Positions 27,129 to 47,023 are shown, numbered from the stretch's first letter. The stretch is 64,000 nucleotides of DNA from a virus (IMGVR_UViG_3300037295_000263:128001-192000), one strand, 5' to 3'. Translations and numbers: made by a program. The notes: generated by a model not told the origin, from the sequence alone.

Positions 27129-27999
27129 TTATTGGAATATCTGCTGCACAAGTGCAATAATTCCTATCGCATATAACAGGCTCAATAGGTAAAATAAAAC
27201 TACTTTGGTAAATATTTCCCAAGCTGCCTCCGACTCTGCAAGTAGCACGATGTACATCACCATCCCAATTTATCATAAGACTTTCTATACCCGCATTGCA
27301 TGACCAGCCTTTATACTTGTTTAAATGTAATTTAATTATATCGTTGGCATGGATAGTTTGTGTTCCATCAATTACACAATTACCCTGCACGGTTGCATCT
27401 TGTTCTTTAATCCATTTTAAGTCATCTGGATGGTATCGCATATCATCAAACAAGTCGTGATCACCTTCAGTCCAGCGTATACGGCGAACGGTGCTAGGAA
27501 TTTCAGCTAGTAAACACCTAGCACGTAACTGCATTACAGCATCCATGTAATCGTGGTGTGCCATAATCTGTGCTATTACTTTTGTTTGAGTTAAATCTAC
27601 TATACTTTCTACAGTATTAAATACACGTTTCCAGTCGTACTCTAAATGAATACTAAACACTAGTTGATCAACTTTTAGACCAGCATAAAACTCATAAGGC
27701 AATGTGCCATTAGTTGTGACACTAATCCACTCAACACCTGCATGATTACAGTGGTGTATTAGTTCTTTAAATTTAGGGTGTACACAAGGTTCTCCACCTG
27801 TAAAACTTAATCGCACAGGTTTTCCCAAAGTGATGAGTTTATCTACTGTGGATTTTAAGATTTCGATATCAGTGTGTGGACTTGTGCTATCGTGTATAGA
27901 ACTAGGGCAGTAACTGCAATCGTAGTTGCAACGCTTGCCCAGGTTCCATTCAATCTTAATACTACCCTGATGTGGCCACCTGCTGGTTACACTATGCAT
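27112..27999 (-). CDS. Radical SAM protein with C-terminal Cys-rich domain
   Basis: CNYDCSYC, TGGEP, TTNG, CNAG...ATC...CDRNYCTC. Confidence 0.9.
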   Translation of the reverse strand: MHSVTSRWPHQGSIKIEWNLGKRCNYDCSYCPSSIHDSTSPHTDIEILKSTVDKLITLGKPVRLSFTGGEPCVHPKFKELIHHCNHAGVEWISVTTNGTLPYEFYAGLKVDQLVFSIHLEYDWKRVFNTVESIVDLTQTKVIAQIMAHHDYMDAVMQLRARCLLAEIPSTVRRIRWTEGDHDLFDDMRYHPDDLKWIKEQDATVQGNCVIDGTQTIHANDIIKLHLNKYKGWSCNAGIESLMINWDGDVHRATCRVGGSLGNIYQSSFILPIEPVICDRNYCTCAADIPITKKQL

Positions 28000-29308
28000 A
28001 CGGTTTAAACTCTGGTATTGTTTCTAATAAATTTTGATTCCTGGTAGCATCTAATTGGTAGTTAAATTCTAAAAAATCTGGCCACAGATTAAATTGGTCT
28101 CTGGATTCGAGATAATTTATATTATCTCGAATTTGTTGTTGTGTTATGATTTCAAGCAACGGATATTTTGTAACAGCTTCCCAGGTGTTTACTTTTAAAC
28201 TAACTGCTTTTAATCTGTCTATTGCAATTATCTTTAAATCTGCAGGTAGCACTTGTGCCGATAGACAATTTGGATAACTCACTCTATGACTGTAAAATAC
28301 AATGCCCATCTTGTTAATAAAATAATCAATGCATTCCGCAGCTTGCAATATATTTCCAGCTTGGGCGGTGAACGCACCTACTACTCTACTTACATTGGGG
28401 ATTTTTTTTATTTCTTTAATGTTCTCTTCCACTTGAGAAAAGTCACCGTTGCCGCGAATGTAATTATAAACATCATGAATGCCGTCAATGCTGACATTAA
28501 CTGCAACACTTTTGAAATGTGGCCAATAGTCATGGACGGTTCTTCCTTTACTAATGCCTAGAGTAGTTCCATTAGTAGCATATTTAATTTCGATATTTTT
28601 ACCATAGGGTTTCAACATGTCCAATATACGGTAATGTTGCGGATCCATTAATGGCTCGCCTCCTGCAAATTCTACCCTTCTAAAATAAGGTAATAATTTC
28701 TTAAAGCTATCCCACCAGTTATCACTATCGTCAAACGCTCCTATATATTGTCCAGGCGATTTAACAAGCTTTTCAATTGTAGGCACAAGGTAATTATTTT
28801 CTTTTTTATAAAAAGGAACTACTTTGTTCCAATCTTTCCAATTAGTGCTATCTAACGGATTGCACATTCGACATTTAAGATTGCACAAGTTGTTTAGTTT
28901 AATTTCCATTGTAGGAAATTCAAATGGCATCGAGTAGTCTTCTCGTAATGTATCTAAAGCATTGGGATACAAATTAATCCTAGCTTCGGGTATAATACCT
29001 TTTATGTGACGTTGACGTAGACTTTCTACTCCTTGGTCTTCTAGATCAAAACACGGTTTGCATACATCTGCACGTTCTCCGCATAAGACTTTTTTTCGTA
29101 CATCTTTAATAATGTCGTTATTCCAAATTTCTTCCAAAGTATTATCTTGAATGTTTCCAATTGGCGCACTTCGACAACAGACTTTAACAGCCCCGTCTTC
29201 CCTTGTTGCTAATCCAGTAAACGGATGCATACAAAATGTTTTACTTTGTTTGTTCAATTGCCCACTCTCTTTCTTTGCACCAAAAGCACTTTCCACATAC
29301 TGGAACAA
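27992..29308 (-). CDS. Radical SAM protein with N-terminal twitch-like domain (start uncertain)
   Basis: FCMHPF...KVCC...CKPC, CNLKCRMC, AGGEP. Confidence 0.9.
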   Translation of the reverse strand: MFQYVESAFGAKKESGQLNKQSKTFCMHPFTGLATREDGAVKVCCRSAPIGNIQDNTLEEIWNNDIIKDVRKKVLCGERADVCKPCFDLEDQGVESLRQRHIKGIIPEARINLYPNALDTLREDYSMPFEFPTMEIKLNNLCNLKCRMCNPLDSTNWKDWNKVVPFYKKENNYLVPTIEKLVKSPGQYIGAFDDSDNWWDSFKKLLPYFRRVEFAGGEPLMDPQHYRILDMLKPYGKNIEIKYATNGTTLGISKGRTVHDYWPHFKSVAVNVSIDGIHDVYNYIRGNGDFSQVEENIKEIKKIPNVSRVVGAFTAQAGNILQAAECIDYFINKMGIVFYSHRVSYPNCLSAQVLPADLKIIAIDRLKAVSLKVNTWEAVTKYPLLEIITQQQIRDNINYLESRDQFNLWPDFLEFNYQLDATRNQNLLETIPEFKPYA

Positions 29309-38599: not shown

Positions 38600-39475
38600 A
38601 TGGATAGAGCATATACCGACTTCGTGTCTTTTTACATTACTAATGTCTGCGGACTTAGTTGCAAAGGATGTGCTAGTTTTAATAACTACGCAGTAAAGCA
38701 CCATTATAAATGGGAAGTTGCTAGAGAAAAAACTTATAAATGGGGAACTCTATTATCAACCAGGCAAATTAGTATAATCGGCGGCGAGCCATTGCTAAAT
38801 CCAGAAATTGATCTTTGGGTTGCTGGCATCAGAGATGCATTCCGACACGTTGACGATATACGAGTATACACAGGGCTTACCGGAAAGAGTTTACTAAGAT
38901 ACAAGGATCAAATTAGAAAATGGTTAAGTCAAAATGTTATAATACAAATTAGTGTACACGATCCTTCTTGGTGGGAAGAATCTATTGAAACTGCCTGTGA
39001 GATTTTAGAAGGCTTGGATTTTGAAATTCAAAAAACAATAGACCAGGGAACTTTCCCATTAAAAGCTGTCAATTTTATATCCCCCGAAGGAGTAGTACTT
39101 TTCTCTATGTTAGAACAATGGGCATTTTTCCCCAGCGCAATACAAAAAGTGCAAAATGGTACTATATATTTCCATAACAACGATCCTGAAAAATCTCATG
39201 CAGCGTGTCATTGTAAAGATTGCCATTATCTAGTAGATGGGGATATGTATAAGTGTGTCATTACTGGAACTGCAAAAATGGTACTGGATCAATTGCCCAT
39301 AGATCAAAGGTCATCGGAATTACTTAAACAGGTTAAAGGATTAGATCCATTTATCGACGGGTGGAACCCAAATATTAAAGAAGTAATTCCGCAGTGTTCG
39401 CTATGTACTAGCGATACGCAAACACGGGTAATGGCATTTCCTATTCCTGTTAAAAAAGAAAAAATACCAAAATGA
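38600..39475 (+). CDS. Radical SAM protein with C-terminal Cys-rich domain
   Basis: CGLSCKGC, GGEP, CHCKDC...YKC...CSLC. Confidence 0.85.
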   Translation: MDRAYTDFVSFYITNVCGLSCKGCASFNNYAVKHHYKWEVAREKTYKWGTLLSTRQISIIGGEPLLNPEIDLWVAGIRDAFRHVDDIRVYTGLTGKSLLRYKDQIRKWLSQNVIIQISVHDPSWWEESIETACEILEGLDFEIQKTIDQGTFPLKAVNFISPEGVVLFSMLEQWAFFPSAIQKVQNGTIYFHNNDPEKSHAACHCKDCHYLVDGDMYKCVITGTAKMVLDQLPIDQRSSELLKQVKGLDPFIDGWNPNIKEVIPQCSLCTSDTQTRVMAFPIPVKKEKIPK

Positions 39476-40398
39476 CTATTAGATATCCTTACGATAAAAG
39501 GCATTTGAATTTTGGAAATTCGTCTGCTATAAAAGATCCTGCAGTATTGTCGTTATTATCTAATTTAAATTTAAATTTAGTAGATATTTTACAAAACGAA
39601 CGGATTGTTAAAGAATTTATAAACGATTACAAAACGTGGATTGAATCTTCTAAATTAAATAAAATAAAAGGCCTTGCAGATTTTAACTATGCATGCTACT
39701 CTAATGGAACTACTGAAGCATTTGATAAGTTTTATTTAAAAAATAACACTAGACGATTTAGATGCTTTCACGGCGAATATATGTATCATCAACTAATGTG
39801 GAGGAATTGTTATCCTTCTTGGGAATTTATTAGTGACTGCGATCTAGATATCAACGATGCAGTTGTAATTAGTTTGCCTTTTGCCGATACAGGAAATCAA
39901 CATTCTGAATATAAAAAATTAATTGCTACTTGCGAAAAACTTAATGTTCCAGTTTTAGTCGACTGTGCATATTTAGGAATTTGCCAAGGTATTGAATTTG
40001 ACTTTTCTAGTACTTGTATAACTGATGTGACTTTTAGCTTATCAAAAACTTTTCCTATATCGCATGCAAGGATAGGACTAAGGCTCACACGTAGCGACAA
40101 TGACGATTCTTTATTTGTTGTAAATAAGGGCGACTATGTTAATCGTCTAGGTGCATATATAGGCTCAACACTAATTAAGAATTTTTCTTCCGATTATATT
40201 GTTACCGAATATCGAGACATTCAAACAAAATTTTGTAACCACCTTAAGGTAGTGCCAAGTAATACTGTGCTATTTGGCATTGGCAATTTATTGTGGAATG
40301 AATATAATCGAGGTAGAGGATCGAATCGTTTAAGTTTCCATAACTACTATCATTTACAGTCTGATAAATTTTATGAAGAAAATTCTCCCCGTGCCTAA
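39472..40398 (+). CDS. PLP-dependent fold-type I aminotransferase-like protein
   Basis: VLVDCAY and SLSKTF.....RIG. Confidence 0.75.
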   Translation: MTIRYPYDKRHLNFGNSSAIKDPAVLSLLSNLNLNLVDILQNERIVKEFINDYKTWIESSKLNKIKGLADFNYACYSNGTTEAFDKFYLKNNTRRFRCFHGEYMYHQLMWRNCYPSWEFISDCDLDINDAVVISLPFADTGNQHSEYKKLIATCEKLNVPVLVDCAYLGICQGIEFDFSSTCITDVTFSLSKTFPISHARIGLRLTRSDNDDSLFVVNKGDYVNRLGAYIGSTLIKNFSSDYIVTEYRDIQTKFCNHLKVVPSNTVLFGIGNLLWNEYNRGRGSNRLSFHNYYHLQSDKFYEENSPRA

Positions 40399-41569
40399 CG
40401 CTAAAATATTAAATTTTGAATTATTGTACTTAAATGAGAATAACTACTCAGATCAAAAAATTGCTGATGTTAATTTTAGATTAGTATCTGCTGATATTAA
40501 AAATGCAGCAAAGGAAGGTTGCGATACAATATTTGGATTGTTATTGCTAGATGGATTTTTATATAAAAACAATACATTGTTTTTTGATTGGTTACGATCT
40601 ATAGAAAAATTATGCTATCAAGAAAATATACATAATCTTATATTAGTTCCAGGGATGTGTGAAGATTTTAAAAATGTATTAGAACAACAGGAAATAACTG
40701 CCAATATAGAATTTTTTGATTTTACACACAGAATGGTGTACAATAGTTATTGTAATAAACTTGATACATTGCCTCGCTGGAATAAAGATGCAACAGATTT
40801 TCTTTTTCTGGGCGGAATTCCTTCTAGGCCGAATAGGATCAGGTTACTATCAAAATTTTATCAAAAGACAGGATTAAAAAATTGCAAGTGGAGTTTTTTT
40901 AAACCGGTGTCCGATGAAGATAAATCCATTTGTAGATTGCTAATGAAAGATTTTTCCAATGAAGAATATCGAGATTTCGTTGATAGTTGCGAAAACTCTG
41001 TCGATGACTTATATATCGAAACGCAAGAGTATTCACGGCTGACCGGCCCTGATATTATAAAAACTAATATATACAGTAAACCTTGGCTTAAAGACCCGGT
41101 GTGGATAGATACTTCAATATTTGAAAATACTAAATTCAGTATCGTGTCAGAGGGCAACGCTTATCCTCCTGCAACTAGTTATAAATTCCTTACAGAAAAA
41201 ACATGGAGAGCTGTTGCAAATCGGCATCCTTTTATCATAGCAGGTCATGCAGATCAAATATATTATGCACATCGGCGTGGCTTATGCACCTTTGAAAATT
41301 ATATGGACTCGGATTTTTATAATTCCCCTGAAGAAGAAAAGTTTGATGCAATTGTACGCAATGCAACGGAATGGCTCGATAATTTAAACTTCCATGAAGT
41401 CAACAACGATGTAGAAAAGAATTATCAAAGATTTTTAGAAATTGCTCAAGAGCAAAATTATTGGCTACAAACGTTAAACGAAGAATATCAAGTACCACTT
41501 GTAGAAATTAATAAATGGTTTAACCAGCTAGGATTTTCTCATTTAATAAGAGTGCCCGATGGATTCTAA
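40373..41569 (+). CDS. Glycosyltransferase-like protein (GT10/GT-B-like C-terminal LTEK motif)
   Basis: KFSIVSE...FLTEKTW...HPFII; paralog of 62207-63397. Confidence 0.45.
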   Translation: MKKILPVPNAKILNFELLYLNENNYSDQKIADVNFRLVSADIKNAAKEGCDTIFGLLLLDGFLYKNNTLFFDWLRSIEKLCYQENIHNLILVPGMCEDFKNVLEQQEITANIEFFDFTHRMVYNSYCNKLDTLPRWNKDATDFLFLGGIPSRPNRIRLLSKFYQKTGLKNCKWSFFKPVSDEDKSICRLLMKDFSNEEYRDFVDSCENSVDDLYIETQEYSRLTGPDIIKTNIYSKPWLKDPVWIDTSIFENTKFSIVSEGNAYPPATSYKFLTEKTWRAVANRHPFIIAGHADQIYYAHRRGLCTFENYMDSDFYNSPEEEKFDAIVRNATEWLDNLNFHEVNNDVEKNYQRFLEIAQEQNYWLQTLNEEYQVPLVEINKWFNQLGFSHLIRVPDGF

Positions 41570-42482
41570 ATGTGCAGCATTTTGGCATCATACTAATATT
41601 CGAAGCGACAATCGAATCTTTCCATGTTGCCGATTTAAAGAACCTGTTGCTACATTCCATGGGACTGTAGATAATATTTTGCTACTACCCGAGTACGTGC
41701 AGTTAAGGAAACAAAGCTCTGAAGGCGAATATATATCTAGTTGCCAAAAATGCTACAAAGAAGAATCGCAAGGCAAACAAAGCCTGCGTCAAGTGTTTAA
41801 CAAAGAATACAATACAGATACTGTTAGTTTAGAATATTTAGAAATTGGATTTGATAATATATGCAATTTAACTTGCGATGGTTGTTGGGAGGAATTTAGT
41901 TCGGAATGGGGCAAAAAACTTATGGTAGTAAAATCAAAAATTGTTAAGTCTACTGCCGAATTTACACAAATTTCTGATACTATTTCCAAAGTACTATTCT
42001 TAGGTGGCGAGCCTTTAATGACTACTCGACACCAAAAGTTTTTAGAATCATTTAACGATTTATCAAAATTAACGGTAATATACAATACTAACGGAACATT
42101 TTTGCTAGATGACAAAACTATAAATATTCTTAATCAGTGTAAGTCTGCAGAATTTATTGTAAGTATAGACGGATATGCTGACCTTAATTCCCGAGTACGA
42201 CCAGGTAGTAATTGGAAGGATATCTTATTGTTAATAGATCAAATTAAGTCTCTACAATTTAAATTATCAGTACATTCAGTAATACATTTAAATAACTGGA
42301 AAGGATTAAAAGAGTTATCTAAATTTGTTAAATCGTTAGATGTAAACTGGACAGTGAATGTGCTTACGTATCCACATCGTCTTGATATTATTAATATAGA
42401 AAATAAACAAGAATTTATTAGTTTAATCGAAAGTATAGATGTTCCAACTAAAGAGTATATTATTGCACATGTTAAAATTTAA
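41559..42482 (+). CDS. Radical SAM protein with N-terminal twitch-like domain
   Basis: C...PCC...CQKC, CNLTCDGC, GGEP, YNTNG. Confidence 0.9.
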   Translation: MDSKCAAFWHHTNIRSDNRIFPCCRFKEPVATFHGTVDNILLLPEYVQLRKQSSEGEYISSCQKCYKEESQGKQSLRQVFNKEYNTDTVSLEYLEIGFDNICNLTCDGCWEEFSSEWGKKLMVVKSKIVKSTAEFTQISDTISKVLFLGGEPLMTTRHQKFLESFNDLSKLTVIYNTNGTFLLDDKTINILNQCKSAEFIVSIDGYADLNSRVRPGSNWKDILLLIDQIKSLQFKLSVHSVIHLNNWKGLKELSKFVKSLDVNWTVNVLTYPHRLDIINIENKQEFISLIESIDVPTKEYIIAHVKI

Positions 42483-43068
42483 AAACTACGTCGATCATCA
42501 AATTATAAATGATGCATTGTTTACTATCAAAAGCAGCGTCAAGGCCTTCGATTGGCGAGAACTTGGAAACTTGTTAAGGTTGGAAGAAAAAGATTTTTCT
42601 TCATTTTTATTTTCTTGGTTTTCTTTAAAAACCGATGACTCCGGATCATATTTCGAATCTAGCGGTAGCTTTCCTGAACTTGACCAAACTAACTGTTCGT
42701 TGCCTAGTTCTGAATTATTGTCGATAGATTTACAACTATTAGATGCTCCGCAATTTAAAGAATTAAAAGAACTAGTAAACAATATTAAAGGCGTAGATTA
42801 CGCAGGATTTATGTTTATGAGTCCTGGATCACATATACCTGCACACAACGACGGAGAAGTTAACAGTATAATAATAACATTAAACATAGAAGAAAATAAT
42901 GCAGATGCGTTTCTTAGAATTAATAAAGATCATTATTATTTTAGTAAATCAGAAATTTTTACATTCGATGCATCTATTCCACACGAAGCTAAGAATCTTT
43001 CAAAAACTGACTGGATTATGTTCGTGTTAAGAATAGAAAAAGAATATTTCACAAAGGAAGAATATTGA
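42469..43068 (+). CDS. AspH-like 2OG-Fe(II) oxygenase
   Basis: PAHND...FDASIPHEAKN. Confidence 0.8.
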   Translation: MLKFKNYVDHQIINDALFTIKSSVKAFDWRELGNLLRLEEKDFSSFLFSWFSLKTDDSGSYFESSGSFPELDQTNCSLPSSELLSIDLQLLDAPQFKELKELVNNIKGVDYAGFMFMSPGSHIPAHNDGEVNSIIITLNIEENNADAFLRINKDHYYFSKSEIFTFDASIPHEAKNLSKTDWIMFVLRIEKEYFTKEEY

Positions 43069-44120
43069 AAGTATTAACAAACAACCACTGGGACCCGTTA
43101 CAAGAAATTATTGTAGGGATTGCTGACTATGCAAGAGTTCCTACAGTAGACAGAAGCACAATGAGCATGAGTTATACAAATCATCCTATAGACTTAATCA
43201 AACCATTAGAGGGAGAGTATCCCAGATGGCTGATAGACGAAGCCAACGAAGACTTGCAAGGGTTAGTGGATGTGCTATCAAAAGCAGGAGTCATAGTGCA
43301 TAGACCTGCTGCTATAGACCATAGCGTAGAATTTAGTACTCCGGATTGGAAAACGACTGGATGGTATACATGGTGTCCGCGTGATTTATTATTACCTTTA
43401 AATAATTTAGTAATAGAGACTCCGAGTGCATGTCGCGCAAGACACTACGAAACTCGAGCATATAAACATATCATGTTAGAAGCAATTAACGATGGAGTCG
43501 AATGGATTGCAGCACCTAAACCTACGTTACTAGACAATAGCTATCAATTTGAAGATATTGACGGTAAGCCTAGCTTACTAAATTTAGAGCCTATTTTTGA
43601 TGCACCTAACTGTGTAAGAATGGGTAAAGATATATTGTTTCAAATTTCTAATACAGGAAATCACTGGGGATTAAAATGGCTACAAAATACATTAACCCCC
43701 CGGGGATACAATATACATCCTGCTGAACACATTTACAGCTACGGGCATTTTGATAGTACTATAGTGCCTTTACGTCCAGGGTTAGTGTTGCTGAACAGCA
43801 GCAGAGTAACTAAGGAAAATTGTCCTAAGATTTTTGAAAAATGGGATAAAATATGGTTTGACGACTGCATTTCTCAAGGAAGTAAAATTCCAGGAGGAGT
43901 AGCACCATGTAGTCCGTATATAGGTATGAATATATTAAGCATCGATCATAATACTGTTGTTGTAGATGATACACAGATTCCACTGATGCGAGAATTGGAA
44001 AAATATAATATCACTAGTGTTCCTATTAGATTTAGACACGCAATGACTCTAAGTGGTGGTATACATTGCACAACTTTGGATCTTCGTAGAAAAGGGTCGC
44101 TTGAAGATTATTTTTCATGA
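43065..44120 (+). CDS. Amidinotransferase (glycine/inosamine-phosphate amidinotransferase family)
   Basis: WDPLQEIIVG, CPRD, FDAP, HFDST, GGIHCTTLD. Confidence 0.92.
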   Translation: MKVLTNNHWDPLQEIIVGIADYARVPTVDRSTMSMSYTNHPIDLIKPLEGEYPRWLIDEANEDLQGLVDVLSKAGVIVHRPAAIDHSVEFSTPDWKTTGWYTWCPRDLLLPLNNLVIETPSACRARHYETRAYKHIMLEAINDGVEWIAAPKPTLLDNSYQFEDIDGKPSLLNLEPIFDAPNCVRMGKDILFQISNTGNHWGLKWLQNTLTPRGYNIHPAEHIYSYGHFDSTIVPLRPGLVLLNSSRVTKENCPKIFEKWDKIWFDDCISQGSKIPGGVAPCSPYIGMNILSIDHNTVVVDDTQIPLMRELEKYNITSVPIRFRHAMTLSGGIHCTTLDLRRKGSLEDYFS

Positions 44121-44614
44121 TACGATTTTTCGGAACTATCGAAGATTTTTGGTCAGCCGATTTAAAAAGCTATCAATTTGTAAATAGATATTCTGCAGGA
44201 CAACGATCTTCTTTTCATAAAAACTATTCAAATACAAACAATGATCTACTGCAAGGATTTGATAGCGAGCTACCAGTAAAAGGAAGATTATTCCTCCAGC
44301 AACTAAAGTTAACAATTGGAACAGTATCCTGGACATGCATTGAACCAGGTCAATCTATTCCAGTGCATACTGATGCATTTTATAAATTTAGAATAGAAAA
44401 CGATATCGACATCAGCCAGTGTATAAGATATTTAATATTTTTACAAGATTGGAGTTTTGGGCATGTAGTAGAATTTGAAGAGCTGTCACTTACTAAGTGG
44501 AAATGTGGCGACGTCTGGGTGTTTGATCACAATTCTAAACATTTTGCATCAAATGCAAGCAATACCGATTTTATAACATGTCAAGTGAATACAATAGTAA
44601 ATACTGGTACTTAA
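44117..44614 (+). CDS. 2OG-Fe(II) oxygenase
   Basis: PVHTD...KHFASN. Confidence 0.7.
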   Translation: MIRFFGTIEDFWSADLKSYQFVNRYSAGQRSSFHKNYSNTNNDLLQGFDSELPVKGRLFLQQLKLTIGTVSWTCIEPGQSIPVHTDAFYKFRIENDIDISQCIRYLIFLQDWSFGHVVEFEELSLTKWKCGDVWVFDHNSKHFASNASNTDFITCQVNTIVNTGT

Positions 44615-44625
44615 TAGGAATTATC

Positions 44626-45747
44626 ATGTCATTAGACGCTCTTCAGATTCACTGGGACAATCAAACACTAAATTATGATTTGGAAAAATATAACTGGCCG
44701 GCATGGGCACTATCGGTAATACAAGAAGTTGCACCGCAAGTAACAGAATTAGAAACATTGCATAATGTATTGACCCCTGTTGAAATTGTAAAAGTTAGTC
44801 AACATGTACAGAATGCCTGTAGTAGACTTGACTTTATGAAAAAGTTTGATGACTTTGTGCAAGGATTCGTTCCTGAAAGAATACAAAATAAAAGATATTT
44901 AATTCAGCGTCAAGGAACATTAAGAGTTGTTATTCCTAATCAGTCTAGCGTTGGCAGACGATTAGCGTTTCATCAAGGCATTTTCGTCGGTAATGGGCGA
45001 GGCTGCAGAACTATATGGACTCCATTTACTCAAGCTAAAGGCACCAACACTATGTGGATGATGGACCTTGATATTTCAAGAGAAATATCCAAGCGTGTGC
45101 TATCAGAAAAATGGAGTTTAGAAAAGTTCGAAGATGAATGTTTAAAATATGCATGGCCAGTTACGCTACAGCCAGGGCAAAGTCATTTATTTTTTCAAGA
45201 ACATATTCACGGCAATGTAGATAATAAAGAAAATTATACCCGAGTTAGTATGGATATGCGTATACTAATCGAAGGCGAAGAGTGGGGTAGAAGACTTCCT
45301 GGGGGATTTATGAGATTACCGGGAGATTATCAAGTTACAGAACAGTTAGACTACACCGGTAAAAAGTTTATTACATACGCAGGTTGGAATAGTCAGTTCA
45401 GTAAAGGAATCCCGCTGCCAATGCAACGTGCGATAATCGAACCTTATTGCCAGTCTAATAAAATTAATTATTCATCTTACGAGTTTGAAAATGAACACAT
45501 GGATTGGCAGCCTGGACTGGAACATTATATTAAAGAAAAACCTGACGGAATAGTATTGTGCAGCATGTACAGCTTAACTGACGACGCTGAAAGATGCTTA
45601 GAGTTGTTAAATCTCGCACTAGACAGTGGCGTTGAGCTACATTTTGCAAATGAGCTGTGTTCATTAAGAACAAAAGACGATTTAGAAAGAATTGTAACTT
45701 ATATAAACTTTGCGGTACCTAAAAAAGGTCCGCAAGTTTGGGAATAG
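44626..45747 (+). CDS. Two-domain protein: PhyH-like 2OG-Fe(II) domain with HxG motif plus C-terminal alpha/beta domain
   Basis: AFHQG...IWTPF...HIHGN...RVSMDMR; the C-terminal domain resembles the sporadic carbohydrate cluster protein family as I recall it. Confidence 0.7.
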   Translation: MSLDALQIHWDNQTLNYDLEKYNWPAWALSVIQEVAPQVTELETLHNVLTPVEIVKVSQHVQNACSRLDFMKKFDDFVQGFVPERIQNKRYLIQRQGTLRVVIPNQSSVGRRLAFHQGIFVGNGRGCRTIWTPFTQAKGTNTMWMMDLDISREISKRVLSEKWSLEKFEDECLKYAWPVTLQPGQSHLFFQEHIHGNVDNKENYTRVSMDMRILIEGEEWGRRLPGGFMRLPGDYQVTEQLDYTGKKFITYAGWNSQFSKGIPLPMQRAIIEPYCQSNKINYSSYEFENEHMDWQPGLEHYIKEKPDGIVLCSMYSLTDDAERCLELLNLALDSGVELHFANELCSLRTKDDLERIVTYINFAVPKKGPQVWE

Positions 45748-45751
45748 TTAT

Positions 45752-47023
45752 TTAAGGATTGATTGCGTACAACGGCATTGCGTATAGAGTTGATCCTACT
45801 TTTATTTTTACAAAAGCTGTAGGACCGCTGTTATTTACTTGTCCACTACCAGAACCAGCAACTACTAAATTTCGGTCATTAAGACTTATAATTTGATCTG
45901 ATCCAATTATAAGACCTGTTCGCATAACGCCTGTTGGGTCGTTAGTGTTTATTTCGAATCTTCCAGGAGTTGTACTAGTTTGATTGTTGCCGTCTACTGC
46001 AACTTGTATATCCGCAAGCATTGAAAAATTACTGCTGTTATCATATCCGCCCCATACAAAATTAAATACCCGCTGATTTGCTACTAACGGTCCAGGATTT
46101 TCAACAGTGTTAGATCCGGTAACAAATAATGATGAGTTAGCAATAGGAGTATTATTGGCGCTTTCTATGCTGAAAATATCATAGTCAACGTTAGGACTAT
46201 TATTAACAATCTTTATTCCAGCACCGTTGCCCAAAGTGGACAATACTAAGCTGGTCGATTTAATAGTATTGTTATCGACGTCGGCAAAGACGATTCCCGA
46301 TACTGCATCGACTAGAATAGTACTGGTTTGATCTAACACAGATCCAGTTAAGTCTCCGTATATTCCCCCTAGTGCAGTAATACTACTTTCACCAGAGTCT
46401 ACTATTCTATCTCCTGAGAAATCTAAAACATTTATATCGTAGCTTCCTCCAGGAATTACTCCACTTCCAGAATTAATAATTTCTCCACCGACTGTTGACC
46501 CAGTAGGCAAATTAATAGTAGAACCTGATGAATTAATTAATGCTGCATTAAGGTATATATTGTTACCTCGTAAATATAAATCTTTAAACCGATTGGTATT
46601 GTCGCCTAGATCGTAAGATGCATCCGAAAAAGGCACTATATTTGTACGAACGGTACCGTTTAATTGAAATGATTTTAATGTAGCATCGACTAGCAGATCA
46701 TTGTCGTAGGCAAACAGTGATCCTTTAAATCCTCCGGTTGCTGAAATAGATCCTGAAAAATCTGTTAAATCTACCGAAGCACTAATAGTTTTCCCTACTT
46801 CATCATACACAAAATCGATATTTGAATGAGTTCCTGTCTCGAACATCGAACCGCTAATATCCTTAACTGCGTCGTCGGATATGGAACCGGTAGTAATACC
46901 GCCGGGTGTTGAGTTATCTCCTATGTATAATAGGTTTTCTTCAGAATCGTATACTAGTTCTCCTGCAAGAGGAGTAATAGTTAGTCGTTCTGTAGTCGAT
47001 CCTCGTCTGATTTGTAATGGCAT
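45752..47023 (-). CDS. Tail fibre / receptor-binding-like virion protein
   Basis: MPLQIRRG...GELVYD...YIGD...GG N-terminus typical of Mtd-N-like fibre anchors; TAAATA upstream. Confidence 0.7.
   Translation of the reverse strand: MPLQIRRGSTTERLTITPLAGELVYDSEENLLYIGDNSTPGGITTGSISDDAVKDISGSMFETGTHSNIDFVYDEVGKTISASVDLTDFSGSISATGGFKGSLFAYDNDLLVDATLKSFQLNGTVRTNIVPFSDASYDLGDNTNRFKDLYLRGNNIYLNAALINSSGSTINLPTGSTVGGEIINSGSGVIPGGSYDINVLDFSGDRIVDSGESSITALGGIYGDLTGSVLDQTSTILVDAVSGIVFADVDNNTIKSTSLVLSTLGNGAGIKIVNNSPNVDYDIFSIESANNTPIANSSLFVTGSNTVENPGPLVANQRVFNFVWGGYDNSSNFSMLADIQVAVDGNNQTSTTPGRFEINTNDPTGVMRTGLIIGSDQIISLNDRNLVVAGSGSGQVNNSGPTAFVKIKVGSTLYAMPLYAINP

What the first reader, a model, noticed from the sequence alone, without database searches (positions are those of the whole stretch)
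44626..45747. 2OG-Fe(II) enzyme with a halogenase-type HxG motif fused to a second domain
Seen: the facial-triad position reads CAT CAA GGC (H-Q-G), with a distal His (HIHGN) and a 2OG-binding Arg (RVSMD). The other ten oxygenases here all have HxD. Known: replacing the Asp/Glu ligand by Gly/Ala opens a halide site in 2OG halogenases (BesD and WelO5 HxG, SyrB2 HxA). The C-terminal domain (IPLPMQRAIIEPYC...DGIVLCSMYSL) resembles the partner protein of the sporadic carbohydrate cluster oxygenase, which I recall as two separate genes in bacteria. Inference: a possible phage radical halogenase acting on a sugar or amino acid.
Basis: partly seen in the sequence, partly recalled or inferred. Interest (0 to 1): 0.75.

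Follow-up and report, generated by a model that had tools for sequence, protein, structure and literature searches.

The report
Phage iron oxygenase with Gly-Gln iron site
A giant water phage carries a two-domain iron/2-oxoglutarate enzyme in which the usual iron-binding aspartate is glycine and a strictly coupled glutamine sits where a related sugar enzyme (HygX) keeps its relocated iron ligand, so it is either an oxygenase with an unusual iron site or a new kind of halogenase, and only an assay or a metal-bound structure can tell.

Summary
ORF 44626-45747 (+, 373 aa) reads F-H116-Q-G118, with the distal His195 and Arg206 kept. It is a fusion of a PhyH-fold Fe/2OG oxygenase (TIGR04324-like) and a TIGR04323-like domain.

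HxG is not a private mutation:
- 118 of 120 close homologues keep HQG.
- 24 diverged cluster representatives (at 50% identity) keep HxG.
- Remoter relatives have HxD.

Gly118 comes with Gln191 (Q-x3-His195) in 23 of 24 HxG rows. Only 1 of 62 HxD rows has Gln there. Position 118 is never Ala and position 191 never Glu in the HxG forms seen. Residue 191 is the position of the relocated Glu in HygX (H-x-G...E-x3-H), a sugar-modifying oxygenase that is not a halogenase. The true halogenase CytC3 has Ser at that position.

G and D switched more than once in the clade (AU test p 0.003).

My odds:
- An oxygenase with a relocated, neutral Gln ligand or pocket-filler, acting on an amino- or guanidino-sugar-like intermediate: about 0.45.
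- A true radical halogenase: about 0.3.

The gene sits in a tailoring operon beside a StrB1-type amidinotransferase. This scan found the same Gly/Gln family earlier on other phage DNA (e1-5370145, e1-5349411). I could not measure distances in the model.

The parts
44616..44619 (+). Shine-Dalgarno-like AGGA, 6 nt before the ATG at 44626
   Evidence: Sequence read. The upstream gene's TAA is at 44612-44614.
44626..45747 (+). Whole gene, 373 codons plus stop (P0001): fused Fe/2OG oxygenase and TIGR04323-like domain
   Evidence: The AF2 model has pLDDT 96 and pTM 0.91.
44626..45345 (+). N-terminal PhyH-type double-stranded beta-helix oxygenase domain (about residues 1-240)
   Evidence: VIA: PtlH Z 13.6, PHYHD1 Z 12.7, SyrB2 Z 11.2, CurA-Hal Z 11.1, HygX Z 9.9. 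Foldseek: CurA-Hal E 2e-9. TIGR04324 at 64 bits.
44971..44979 (+). H116-Q117-G118 (cat caa ggc): proximal His ligand, with Gly at the carboxylate position
   Evidence: Invariant in the HxG clade.
45196..45198 (+). Gln191 (caa), four residues before the distal His. It covaries with Gly118 and is the positional equivalent of HygX's relocated Glu.
   Evidence: The HygX motif H-X-G...E-X3-H comes from PMC13374393. CytC3 has Ser at this position.
45208..45210 (+). His195 (cac), the distal iron ligand
   Evidence: Invariant in 58 of 58 rows. Aligns on the distal His of PtlH.
45241..45261 (+). R206-V-S-M-D210-M-R212, strand with the putative 2OG C5-carboxylate-binding Arg
   Evidence: R206 and D210 are invariant. 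The stretch aligns on RMSMDTR of PtlH.
45358..45705 (+). C-terminal TIGR04323-like domain (about residues 245-360) with the fold of a serine-recombinase catalytic domain, but without a conserved Ser nucleophile
   Evidence: TIGR04323 E 1.4e-11. VIA: 3guv Z 12.4 with rmsd 2.3, Bxb1 Z 12.2. Conserved residues are Y251, Q267, R268, E288, P296, S313, F340 and E343, while 253-257 vary.
43065..44120 (+). Context: StrB1-type amidinotransferase in the same overlapping-gene operon
   Evidence: PDB 1bwd, E 1.1e-92, full length. It lies within about 5 kb of the fusion gene in 25 of 34 related phage loci that have enough flank.
44117..44614 (+). Context: small cupin/AspH-like oxygenase with HTD, directly upstream

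Best explanation
The gene encodes an active Fe(II)/2-oxoglutarate enzyme of the fused 'sporadic carbohydrate cluster' lineage.

Shown:
- It has a PhyH fold.
- Both His ligands and the 2OG-binding Arg strand are kept.
- Gly replaces the carboxylate ligand.
- Gln191 is strictly coupled to that Gly.

Inferred:
- The Gln191 side chain reaches into the space vacated by Asp, from the same i-4 position that HygX uses for its relocated Glu. There it either ligates iron through its amide oxygen (a 2-His-1-Gln site) or fills and polarises that site.
- The enzyme is therefore an oxygenase with an altered first coordination sphere, not a halogenase.
- A neutral, relocated third ligand probably biases the ferryl intermediate away from plain hydroxyl rebound, towards desaturation, cyclisation or epimerisation, as in HygX.
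- The substrate is probably an amino- or guanidino-sugar or cyclitol-like intermediate made by the neighbouring PLP enzyme, radical SAM enzymes and StrB1-type amidinotransferase.
- The C-terminal resolvase-fold domain is a non-catalytic partner that binds substrate or mediates assembly. In split systems it is a separate protein.
For: - Fold and ligand mapping.
- G118/Q191 coupling: 23 of 24 HxG rows have Q191 against 1 of 62 HxD rows. Only 1 of 69 tree rows is discordant, and all 3 independent pairs on well-supported branches go the same way. Q191 is invariant in 18 diverged HxG proteins.
- Size complementarity: HxD relatives and solved HxD enzymes have small residues at i-4 (Ala in PtlH, Gly in AndA and EasH).
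- Gly only: position 118 is never Ala in 24 diverged HxG rows and is Gly in 118 of 120 close homologues.
- HygX precedent: it has H-X-G...E-X3-H with the acidic ligand relocated, and it is a sugar-modifying non-halogenase (PMC13374393). HygX is among the fold neighbours (Z 9.9).
- The true halogenase CytC3 has Ser at the Q191 position.
- D and G forms interconvert repeatedly within one clade. The AU test rejects a single HxG clade, p 0.003.
- The published criterion for a halogenase is that no other coordinating residue lies near the 2-His site.
- Asp-to-Gly or Asp-to-Ala alone does not make prolyl 4-hydroxylase a halogenase.
- Context: a sugar and amidino tailoring operon.
Against: - Gln is never Glu in the HxG sequences seen, although the two differ by one base. 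If relocating the ligand were all that was needed, Glu would be expected at least sometimes. A neutral amide next to an iron site that has lost one negative charge would also suit a bound halide.
- I know of no characterised Fe/2OG enzyme with a 2-His-1-Gln site (from memory).
- I could not measure the Gln-to-His distances, because the model's coordinates are not exposed by the tools.
- The equivalence with HygX rests on the motif spacing quoted in a review and on a shared fold, not on a residue-level superposition.
- The substrate assignment is inference from neighbouring genes. The amidinotransferase link holds only for close relatives (at least about 70% identity).
Confidence: 0.45

Rival explanations
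1. It is a true Fe/2OG radical halogenase. Iron is held by His116 and His195 only, a halide takes the site left by Gly118, and the Gln191 amide NH2 hydrogen-bonds and positions the halide. The enzyme chlorinates or brominates a sugar, cyclitol or amino-acid-like intermediate, perhaps cryptically to set up a later ring closure or elimination.
For: - HxG at the carboxylate position is conserved across a large clade.
- The best Foldseek hits are CurA-Hal, E 2e-9, and SyrB2 also appears. The HxG profile picks up CytC3 weakly, with HQG aligned on HQA.
- Gln is selected over the isosteric Glu in every HxG sequence seen. This points to selection against a carboxylate and leaves the iron site one negative charge short, which a halide would supply.
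- Halogenases and non-halogenase counterparts are known to be intermixed within families. The G/D switching therefore fits this reading too.
- Another halogenase class, the dimetal-carboxylate enzymes, is marked by a halogenase-specific Gln.
Against: - Known halogenases keep a small residue at i-4 (Ser in CytC3; Ser231 in SyrB2 from memory). That leaves room for the halide, whereas Gln would largely fill the pocket.
- The strict need for Gly rather than Ala suggests that a side chain packs over position 118.
- HygX shows that H-x-G with a long i-4 side chain is an oxygenase solution.
- Asp-to-Gly alone is not sufficient for halogenation.
- No carrier protein, halide transporter or dehalogenating or cyclising partner was recognised next to the gene.
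Confidence: 0.3
2. It is a 2-His-only oxygenase in which the third facial position is taken by water or by a group of the substrate itself, such as a carboxylate, phosphate or vicinal hydroxyl of a sugar acid or sugar phosphate. Gln191 acts only as a second-sphere residue that orients that ligand.
For: - The metal and 2OG residues are conserved while the carboxylate is missing.
- The family lives in carbohydrate clusters, where anionic sugar substrates are common.
- From memory: the FIH D201G variant still hydroxylates, so two His ligands can suffice.
Against: - No direct evidence.
- It does not explain why Gly (never Ala) and Gln (never Glu, Asn or Ser) are both required.
Confidence: 0.15
3. 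It is a catalytically dead or non-oxidative scaffold: a pseudo-enzyme, or an iron-independent binding protein retained in the cluster.
For: - Loss of a facial-triad ligand is a common mark of pseudo-enzymes.
- No Pfam model recognises the protein.
Against: - H116, H195, R206, D210, N200 and Q191 are invariant over sequences down to about 30% identity.
- The gene is kept in hundreds of phage contigs.
Confidence: 0.05

Closest known systems
TIGR04324 / TIGR04323 'sporadic carbohydrate cluster' 2OG-Fe(II) oxygenase and LIC12192-family partner (NCBIfam)
   Same: Both halves match these two models and no others (E 1.4e-17 and 1.4e-11). Relatives sit in glycan or sugar clusters with glycosyltransferases, DegT aminotransferases and epimerases. 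A split pair is 34% identical in the partner domain.
   Different: Scores are below both curated cut-offs (64 against 150 bits, 44 against 55 bits). The two proteins are fused here. The aspartate ligand is replaced by Gly plus the coupled Gln191. I found no paper on the function of either family.
HygX (hygromycin B orthoester-forming Fe/2OG oxygenase; PDB 4XC9/4XCA/4XCB)
   Same: PhyH-like fold neighbour (Z 9.9). It acts on a carbohydrate. Its iron motif is H-X-G...E-X3-H, with Gly at the old carboxylate site and the third ligand four residues before the distal His. That spacing equals G118...Q191-x3-H195 here.
   Different: This protein has Gln, not Glu, at i-4. There is no detectable sequence match to HygX by HMMER. 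It has an extra C-terminal domain, and it is phage-borne.
SyrB2 / CytC3 / CurA-Hal carrier-protein-dependent Fe/2OG halogenases
   Same: Same PhyH-type fold (CurA-Hal E 2e-9; SyrB2 Z 11.2). The proximal motif HQG aligns on the HQA of CytC3. There is no carboxylate ligand.
   Different: They have Ala, not Gly, and Ser, not Gln, at i-4. They act on carrier-protein-tethered amino acids, and no carrier protein is encoded nearby. Identity is only 10-14%.
PtlH (1-deoxypentalenic acid 11-beta-hydroxylase, PDB 2RDN)
   Same: It is the best solved relative both by profile (E 2e-7) and by structure (Z 13.6, 214 residues). The FHQ(D/G), W-x-P and R-x-S-x-D-x-R motifs align.
   Different: PtlH has the canonical Asp and an Ala at i-4. 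It is a terpenoid hydroxylase and a single-domain protein.
Serine recombinase (resolvase) catalytic domain, for the C-terminal domain only
   Same: Same fold: Z 12.4 with rmsd 2.3 Å over 100 residues (3guv), and Bxb1 Z 12.2.
   Different: The Ser nucleophile region (residues 253-257) is not conserved. There is no DNA-binding domain. No Pfam Resolvase hit.

Membership tests
Fe(II)/2OG oxygenase superfamily, PhyH-type | Double-stranded beta-helix fold of the PhyH type | tested here: met
   AF2 pLDDT 96. PtlH Z 13.6 and PHYHD1 Z 12.7. 298 Foldseek hits at E <= 0.001, the listed top 50 all Fe/2OG or related DSBH proteins.
Fe(II)/2OG oxygenase superfamily, PhyH-type | Two His iron ligands (H-x-D/E ... 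H) | tested here: met
   H116 and H195 are invariant in 58 sequences. They align on the FHQD and distal CH-K of PtlH.
Fe(II)/2OG oxygenase superfamily, PhyH-type | Carboxylate ligand two residues after the proximal His | tested here: not met
   Gly118.
Fe(II)/2OG oxygenase superfamily, PhyH-type | Basic residue binding the 2OG C5 carboxylate on the strand after the distal His | tested here: met
   R206 is invariant, and the R-V-S-x-D-x-R strand aligns on RMSMDTR of PtlH. Binding itself was not tested.
TIGR04324 (sporadic carbohydrate cluster 2OG-Fe(II) oxygenase) | Score at or above the curated cut-off (150 bits) | tested here: not met
   64.1 bits. All fused relatives tested, HxD or HxG, score 57-105 bits.
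TIGR04323 (LIC12192-family partner) | Score at or above the curated cut-off (55 bits) | tested here: not met
   44.4 bits, E 1.4e-11. 34% identity to a stand-alone partner.
Fe/2OG radical halogenases | Gly or Ala in place of the carboxylate ligand | tested here: met
   G118, conserved. Aligns on Ala of the CytC3 HQA motif.
Fe/2OG radical halogenases | No other coordinating side chain near the 2-His site, giving an open halide pocket (criterion of Kipouros and Chang 2026) | tested here: inconclusive
   Invariant Gln191 sits at the i-4 position that ligates iron in HygX. CytC3 has Ser there. Distances in the model could not be read.
Fe/2OG radical halogenases | Halide-dependent C-H halogenation | not testable with these tools
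   Needs an enzyme assay.
HygX-type relocated facial triad (H-X-G...E-X3-H) | Gly at the old carboxylate site, with the third-ligand position four residues before the distal His | tested here: met
   G118 and Q191-x3-H195. HygX motif.
HygX-type relocated facial triad (H-X-G...E-X3-H) | An acidic residue (Glu) at that i-4 position | tested here: not met
   Gln in 23 of 24 HxG rows, never Glu. Gln is also invariant in 18 diverged HxG proteins.
Serine recombinases (C-terminal domain) | Catalytic Ser after strand 1, conserved Arg residues, and a DNA-binding domain | tested here: not met
   Positions 253-257 are variable. There is no further domain, and no Pfam Resolvase match. Only the fold is shared.

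The most novel reading that the evidence does not exclude
This is the first virus-encoded Fe/2OG radical halogenase family. It would use a new halide site built from Gly118 plus a hydrogen-bonding Gln191, and would chlorinate or brominate a sugar- or aminocyclitol-type intermediate that decorates the phage or the infected cell. Hundreds of uncultured giant phages of lakes and seas carry it.
Probability: 0.3. Interest if true: 0.85.

Novelty: new variant of a known kind. Interest (0 to 1): 0.62.

Why it matters
Both surviving readings are new. If Gln191 binds iron, this is a natural and widespread Fe/2OG enzyme with a 2-His-1-Gln site. I know of no characterised example. It would show how the first coordination sphere can be retuned, with Asp swapped for a relocated neutral amide, and swapped back several times within one family. 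If the site binds halide, it is the first viral radical halogenase and the first aimed at a carbohydrate-type substrate.

The family is also a warning for motif-based halogenase mining, because HxG alone is not enough. The gene further marks a conserved but chemically unknown tailoring pathway in giant T4-like phages, made of a StrB1-type amidinotransferase, a PLP enzyme, radical SAM enzymes and cupin oxygenases. Its product, a guanidino- or amidino-sugar-like decoration, is undescribed.

Tried and rejected
Searches that found nothing or little:
- Megablast and tblastn against 50,697 phage records: no match.
- Pfam and PHROGs: no family for the protein.
- phmmer against PDB sequences: nothing.
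- The phrase 'sporadic carbohydrate cluster' occurs in no held paper. 'SyrB2 Ser231 chloride' found no paper, so the SyrB2 Ser231 remark stays a memory.
- The search for related loci with the 58-row alignment in bacterial genomes failed, because no conserved 7-10-column stretch was available.
- Widening the clade with P0159 as query gave only 4 proteins.
- The primary HygX paper (McCulloch 2015) is not held. I rely on a 2026 review for the motif.
- The supplement of Kipouros and Chang is not held, so I could not see whether this family is in their halogenase or 2His-Gln lists.

Readings rejected:
- Glu192 as the substitute carboxylate. It is acidic in only 71% of HxG rows, with Gly, His or Ala in the others.
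- Asp210 as a compensating ligand. It is invariant in the HxD relatives too.
- A private mutation or a sequencing error.
- A recombinase function for the C-terminal domain.

Left open:
- Parsimony cannot tell whether G+Q or D is ancestral in the clade: 7 against 8 changes.
- I did not use complex prediction. No binding claim depended on it.
- The tools do not expose model coordinates, so the key Gln191-to-His distance is unmeasured.

Full report
**The object.** The window is part of a 216.7-kb uncultured virus record. Earlier notes of this scan describe it as a giant T4-like water phage. ORF 44626-45747 (+) encodes 373 residues (P0001). The start at 44626 has AGGA 6 nt upstream and follows the stop of the preceding gene by 11 nt. 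Homologues start at the same point. The gene closes a run of overlapping plus-strand genes from 38600 to 45747:
- a radical SAM enzyme;
- a weak fold-I PLP-enzyme match;
- an unknown 398-aa protein;
- a twitch-domain radical SAM enzyme;
- a cupin/AspH-like oxygenase;
- an amidinotransferase;
- a second small cupin oxygenase;
- this gene.

A tail-fibre-like gene with an Mtd_N domain converges on it from the minus strand.

**Checking the observation.** The codons cat caa ggc at 44971-44979 give H116-Q-G118. The codon cac at 45208 gives His195 in the motif HIHGN. The codons from 45241 give RVSMD.

NCBIfam finds only two families:
- TIGR04324, the 'sporadic carbohydrate cluster 2OG-Fe(II) oxygenase', over residues 33-213 (64 bits; cut-off 150);
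- TIGR04323, the LIC12192-family partner, over residues 262-359 (44 bits; cut-off 55).

A split form exists in L087. There a 229-aa HTD oxygenase is followed after 7 bases by a 121-aa protein that is 34% identical to this C-terminal domain. The fusion itself is the rule among relatives rather than a phage oddity. Most full-length hits of the exhaustive search are 330-410 aa and span both halves. Eight of nine fused HxD relatives tested hit both models, all below the TIGR04324 cut-off.

**Structure.** With a 58-sequence alignment, AlphaFold2 gives pLDDT 96 and pTM 0.91.

Residues 1-240 form a PhyH-type double-stranded beta-helix.
- The best VIA matches are PtlH (Z 13.6), ThoJ and PHYHD1. SyrB2 (Z 11.2), CurA-Hal (Z 11.1) and HygX (Z 9.9) are also listed.
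- Foldseek ranks CurA-Hal first, at E 2e-9.
- A family profile hits PtlH at E 2e-7. It aligns FHtDewyGhG on the FHQDGFYIG of PtlH, and the distal His and the R-x-S-x-D-x-R strand on their PtlH counterparts.
- In SEQRES numbering these PtlH residues are H140, D142 and H229. With the 3-residue offset they match the His137/Asp139/His226 ligands that I remember for PtlH.
- Gly118 therefore lies exactly at the carboxylate position.

Residues 245-355 have the fold of a serine-recombinase catalytic domain (3guv Z 12.4, rmsd 2.3 Å over 100 residues; Bxb1 Z 12.2). The region that would hold the Ser nucleophile (253-257) is not conserved. The conserved residues are Y251, Q267, R268, E288, P296, S313, F340 and E343. 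It shares the fold but is not a recombinase.

**Is HxG a private mutation?** No.
- Of 120 close homologues (75-87% identity), 118 read HQG. There are 611 such hits in the protein collection and at least 80 loci in viral contigs.
- ESM Atlas clusters near the protein are 88-97% viral.
- In the exhaustive search of 50%-identity representatives (326 hits), 24 diverged proteins have H-x-G (HQG, HTG or HNG) and 62 have H-x-D.
- On a maximum-likelihood tree of 69 full-length proteins, all 19 HxG rows fall in one clade of 27 (SH-aLRT 100). That clade also holds 8 HxD rows. The other 42 rows are all HxD.
- The G/D state needs 8 changes on the best tree, and at least 3 are forced by well-supported branches. 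An AU test rejects a tree with the HxG rows as one group, p 0.003.
- Parsimony cannot say which state is ancestral in the clade: 7 against 8 changes.

**The coupled glutamine.** I contrasted HxG and HxD rows column by column. Position 191, four residues before the distal His, stands out.
- It is Gln in 23 of 24 HxG rows. The exception, P0222 (244 aa), does not align over this segment.
- It is Gln in only 1 of 62 HxD rows. Those rows have Ser, Ala, Asn, Pro, Gly or Met there.
- On the tree only one of 69 rows is discordant (P0131, HND with Gln).
- All three independent pairs on supported branches change together. That is too few for a sign test, and 8 pairs exist on the full tree.
- In 18 diverged HxG proteins the invariant residues are P104, H116, G118, W131, G184, F189, Q191, H195, G196, N200 and R206. 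Gln191 is thus conserved as strictly as the metal ligands.
- The neighbouring Glu192 is acidic in only 71% of HxG rows, so it cannot be a general substitute ligand.
- Asp210 is invariant in HxD rows too.
- Position 118 is never Ala and position 191 never Glu in the HxG forms seen, although Gln and Glu codons differ by one base.

**What the coupling means.** Three comparisons bear on it.
1. HygX is the hygromycin B orthoester-forming Fe/2OG oxygenase. [quoted passage not shown] The spacing is the same as G118...Q191-x3-H195. HygX is a fold neighbour, acts on a carbohydrate and is not a halogenase. I checked the motif in the review. The primary paper is not held.
2. The profile of the HxG clade aligns the true halogenase CytC3, weakly, with WHQA on FHQG and F-W-S-N-T-M-H on F-t-Q-e-h-l-H. 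The halogenase therefore has Ser where this family has Gln. From memory, SyrB2 likewise has Ser231 lining its chloride pocket four residues before His235.
3. Canonical HxD enzymes have Ala or Gly at this position (PtlH, AndA, EasH).

The pattern is this. A side chain is lost at 118 and a long one is gained at 191. Both are obligatory, and Gly rather than Ala is required. That is the signature of a compensating pair in contact. It suggests that the Gln side chain occupies the vacated ligand position.

Kipouros and Chang (Nature 2026) classify a 2-His site as a halogenase only if no other coordinating residue lies nearby. They also report that predicted 2His-X sites in cupins include X = Gln. 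Asp-to-Ala or Asp-to-Gly does not turn prolyl 4-hydroxylase into a halogenase.

**Why halogenation is not excluded.** Consistent selection of Gln over the isosteric Glu suggests that a carboxylate is disfavoured. A neutral amide leaves the iron site one negative charge short, which a halide would supply, and the amide NH2 could hydrogen-bond the halide. [quoted passage not shown] Repeated G/D switching therefore fits either reading. The Gln-iron distance would decide it, but the tools do not give model coordinates.

**Context and substrate.**
- The upstream 351-aa protein is a full-length relative of StrB1, the inosamine-phosphate amidinotransferase of streptomycin synthesis (1bwd, E 1.1e-92). 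It also matches HsvA, AGAT and SxtG.
- A homologue of it lies within about 5 kb of the fusion gene in 25 of 34 related phage loci with enough flank, although gene order is shuffled.
- More distant family members lack it. They sit among glycosyltransferases, DegT-type aminotransferases, epimerases and radical SAM enzymes (P0129, an HQG form in a phage-like contig), or next to a PhyH protein and a GT2 in a Planctomycetota MAG (P0148, an HTG form).
- The family therefore belongs to sugar tailoring. In this phage the likely substrate is an amino- or guanidino-sugar or cyclitol-type intermediate. This is inference.
- Iyer et al. 2021 predicted an 'amino acid halogenase' in a cluster of cyanophage S-SSM6a. 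tblastn of P0001 against the phage collection found nothing. I therefore have no evidence that it is the same family.

**Verdict.** The halogenase reading is possible (about 0.3). It is weaker than an oxygenase with a relocated, neutral Gln at the third facial position (about 0.45). A substrate- or water-completed 2-His site (about 0.15) and a dead enzyme (about 0.05) make up the rest. Either leading reading is a new variant of a known kind.

The same Gly/Gln family was already found by this scan on other phage DNA (e1-5370145, e1-5349411, e1-5335683). Here I re-derived the coupling on my own alignment. I added the CytC3 alignment, the AU test, the StrB1 identification, the split-form check and the link to the published structural criterion.

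Noticed in passing
window 43065-44120 (+): Full-length StrB1-type amidinotransferase (PDB 1bwd, E 1.1e-92; also matches HsvA, AGAT and SxtG). Pfam and NCBIfam barely see it. It travels with the fusion gene in 25 of 34 related phage loci with enough flank, which suggests a guanidino or amidino decoration.
   Followed up: partly
window 45358-45705 (+), residues 245-360 of P0001: The TIGR04323 'LIC12192-family' domain has the fold of a serine-recombinase catalytic domain (Z about 12, rmsd 2.2-2.3 Å) but lacks a conserved nucleophile. I found no paper that mentions this family or its function.
   Followed up: partly
window 41559-42482 (+) and 27992-29308 (-): Radical SAM proteins with the SPASM/twitch Cys-rich segment at the N-terminus, ahead of the radical SAM core. 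The first matches NF033640 'N_Twi_rSAM' at 189 bits. The island holds several more radical SAM genes.
   Followed up: no
window 45752-47023 (-): A 423-aa protein with an Mtd_N (major tropism determinant N-terminal) domain converges on the end of the tailoring operon. A receptor-binding protein next to a sugar-tailoring island may be worth a look.
   Followed up: no
P0131 and P0143 (relatives, no window coordinates): Two in-clade relatives carry both an Asp at 118 and a long polar residue at 191: HND with Gln in P0131, and HSD with Glu in P0143. They are possible intermediates of the ligand swap.
   Followed up: no
L085/L086 (P0126 context): An HKD relative sits in a phage-like contig beside a full Suf iron-sulfur assembly set (SufB, SufC, SufD, SufS and an FeS_assembly_P protein), plus HSP20 and ClpS.
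   Followed up: no
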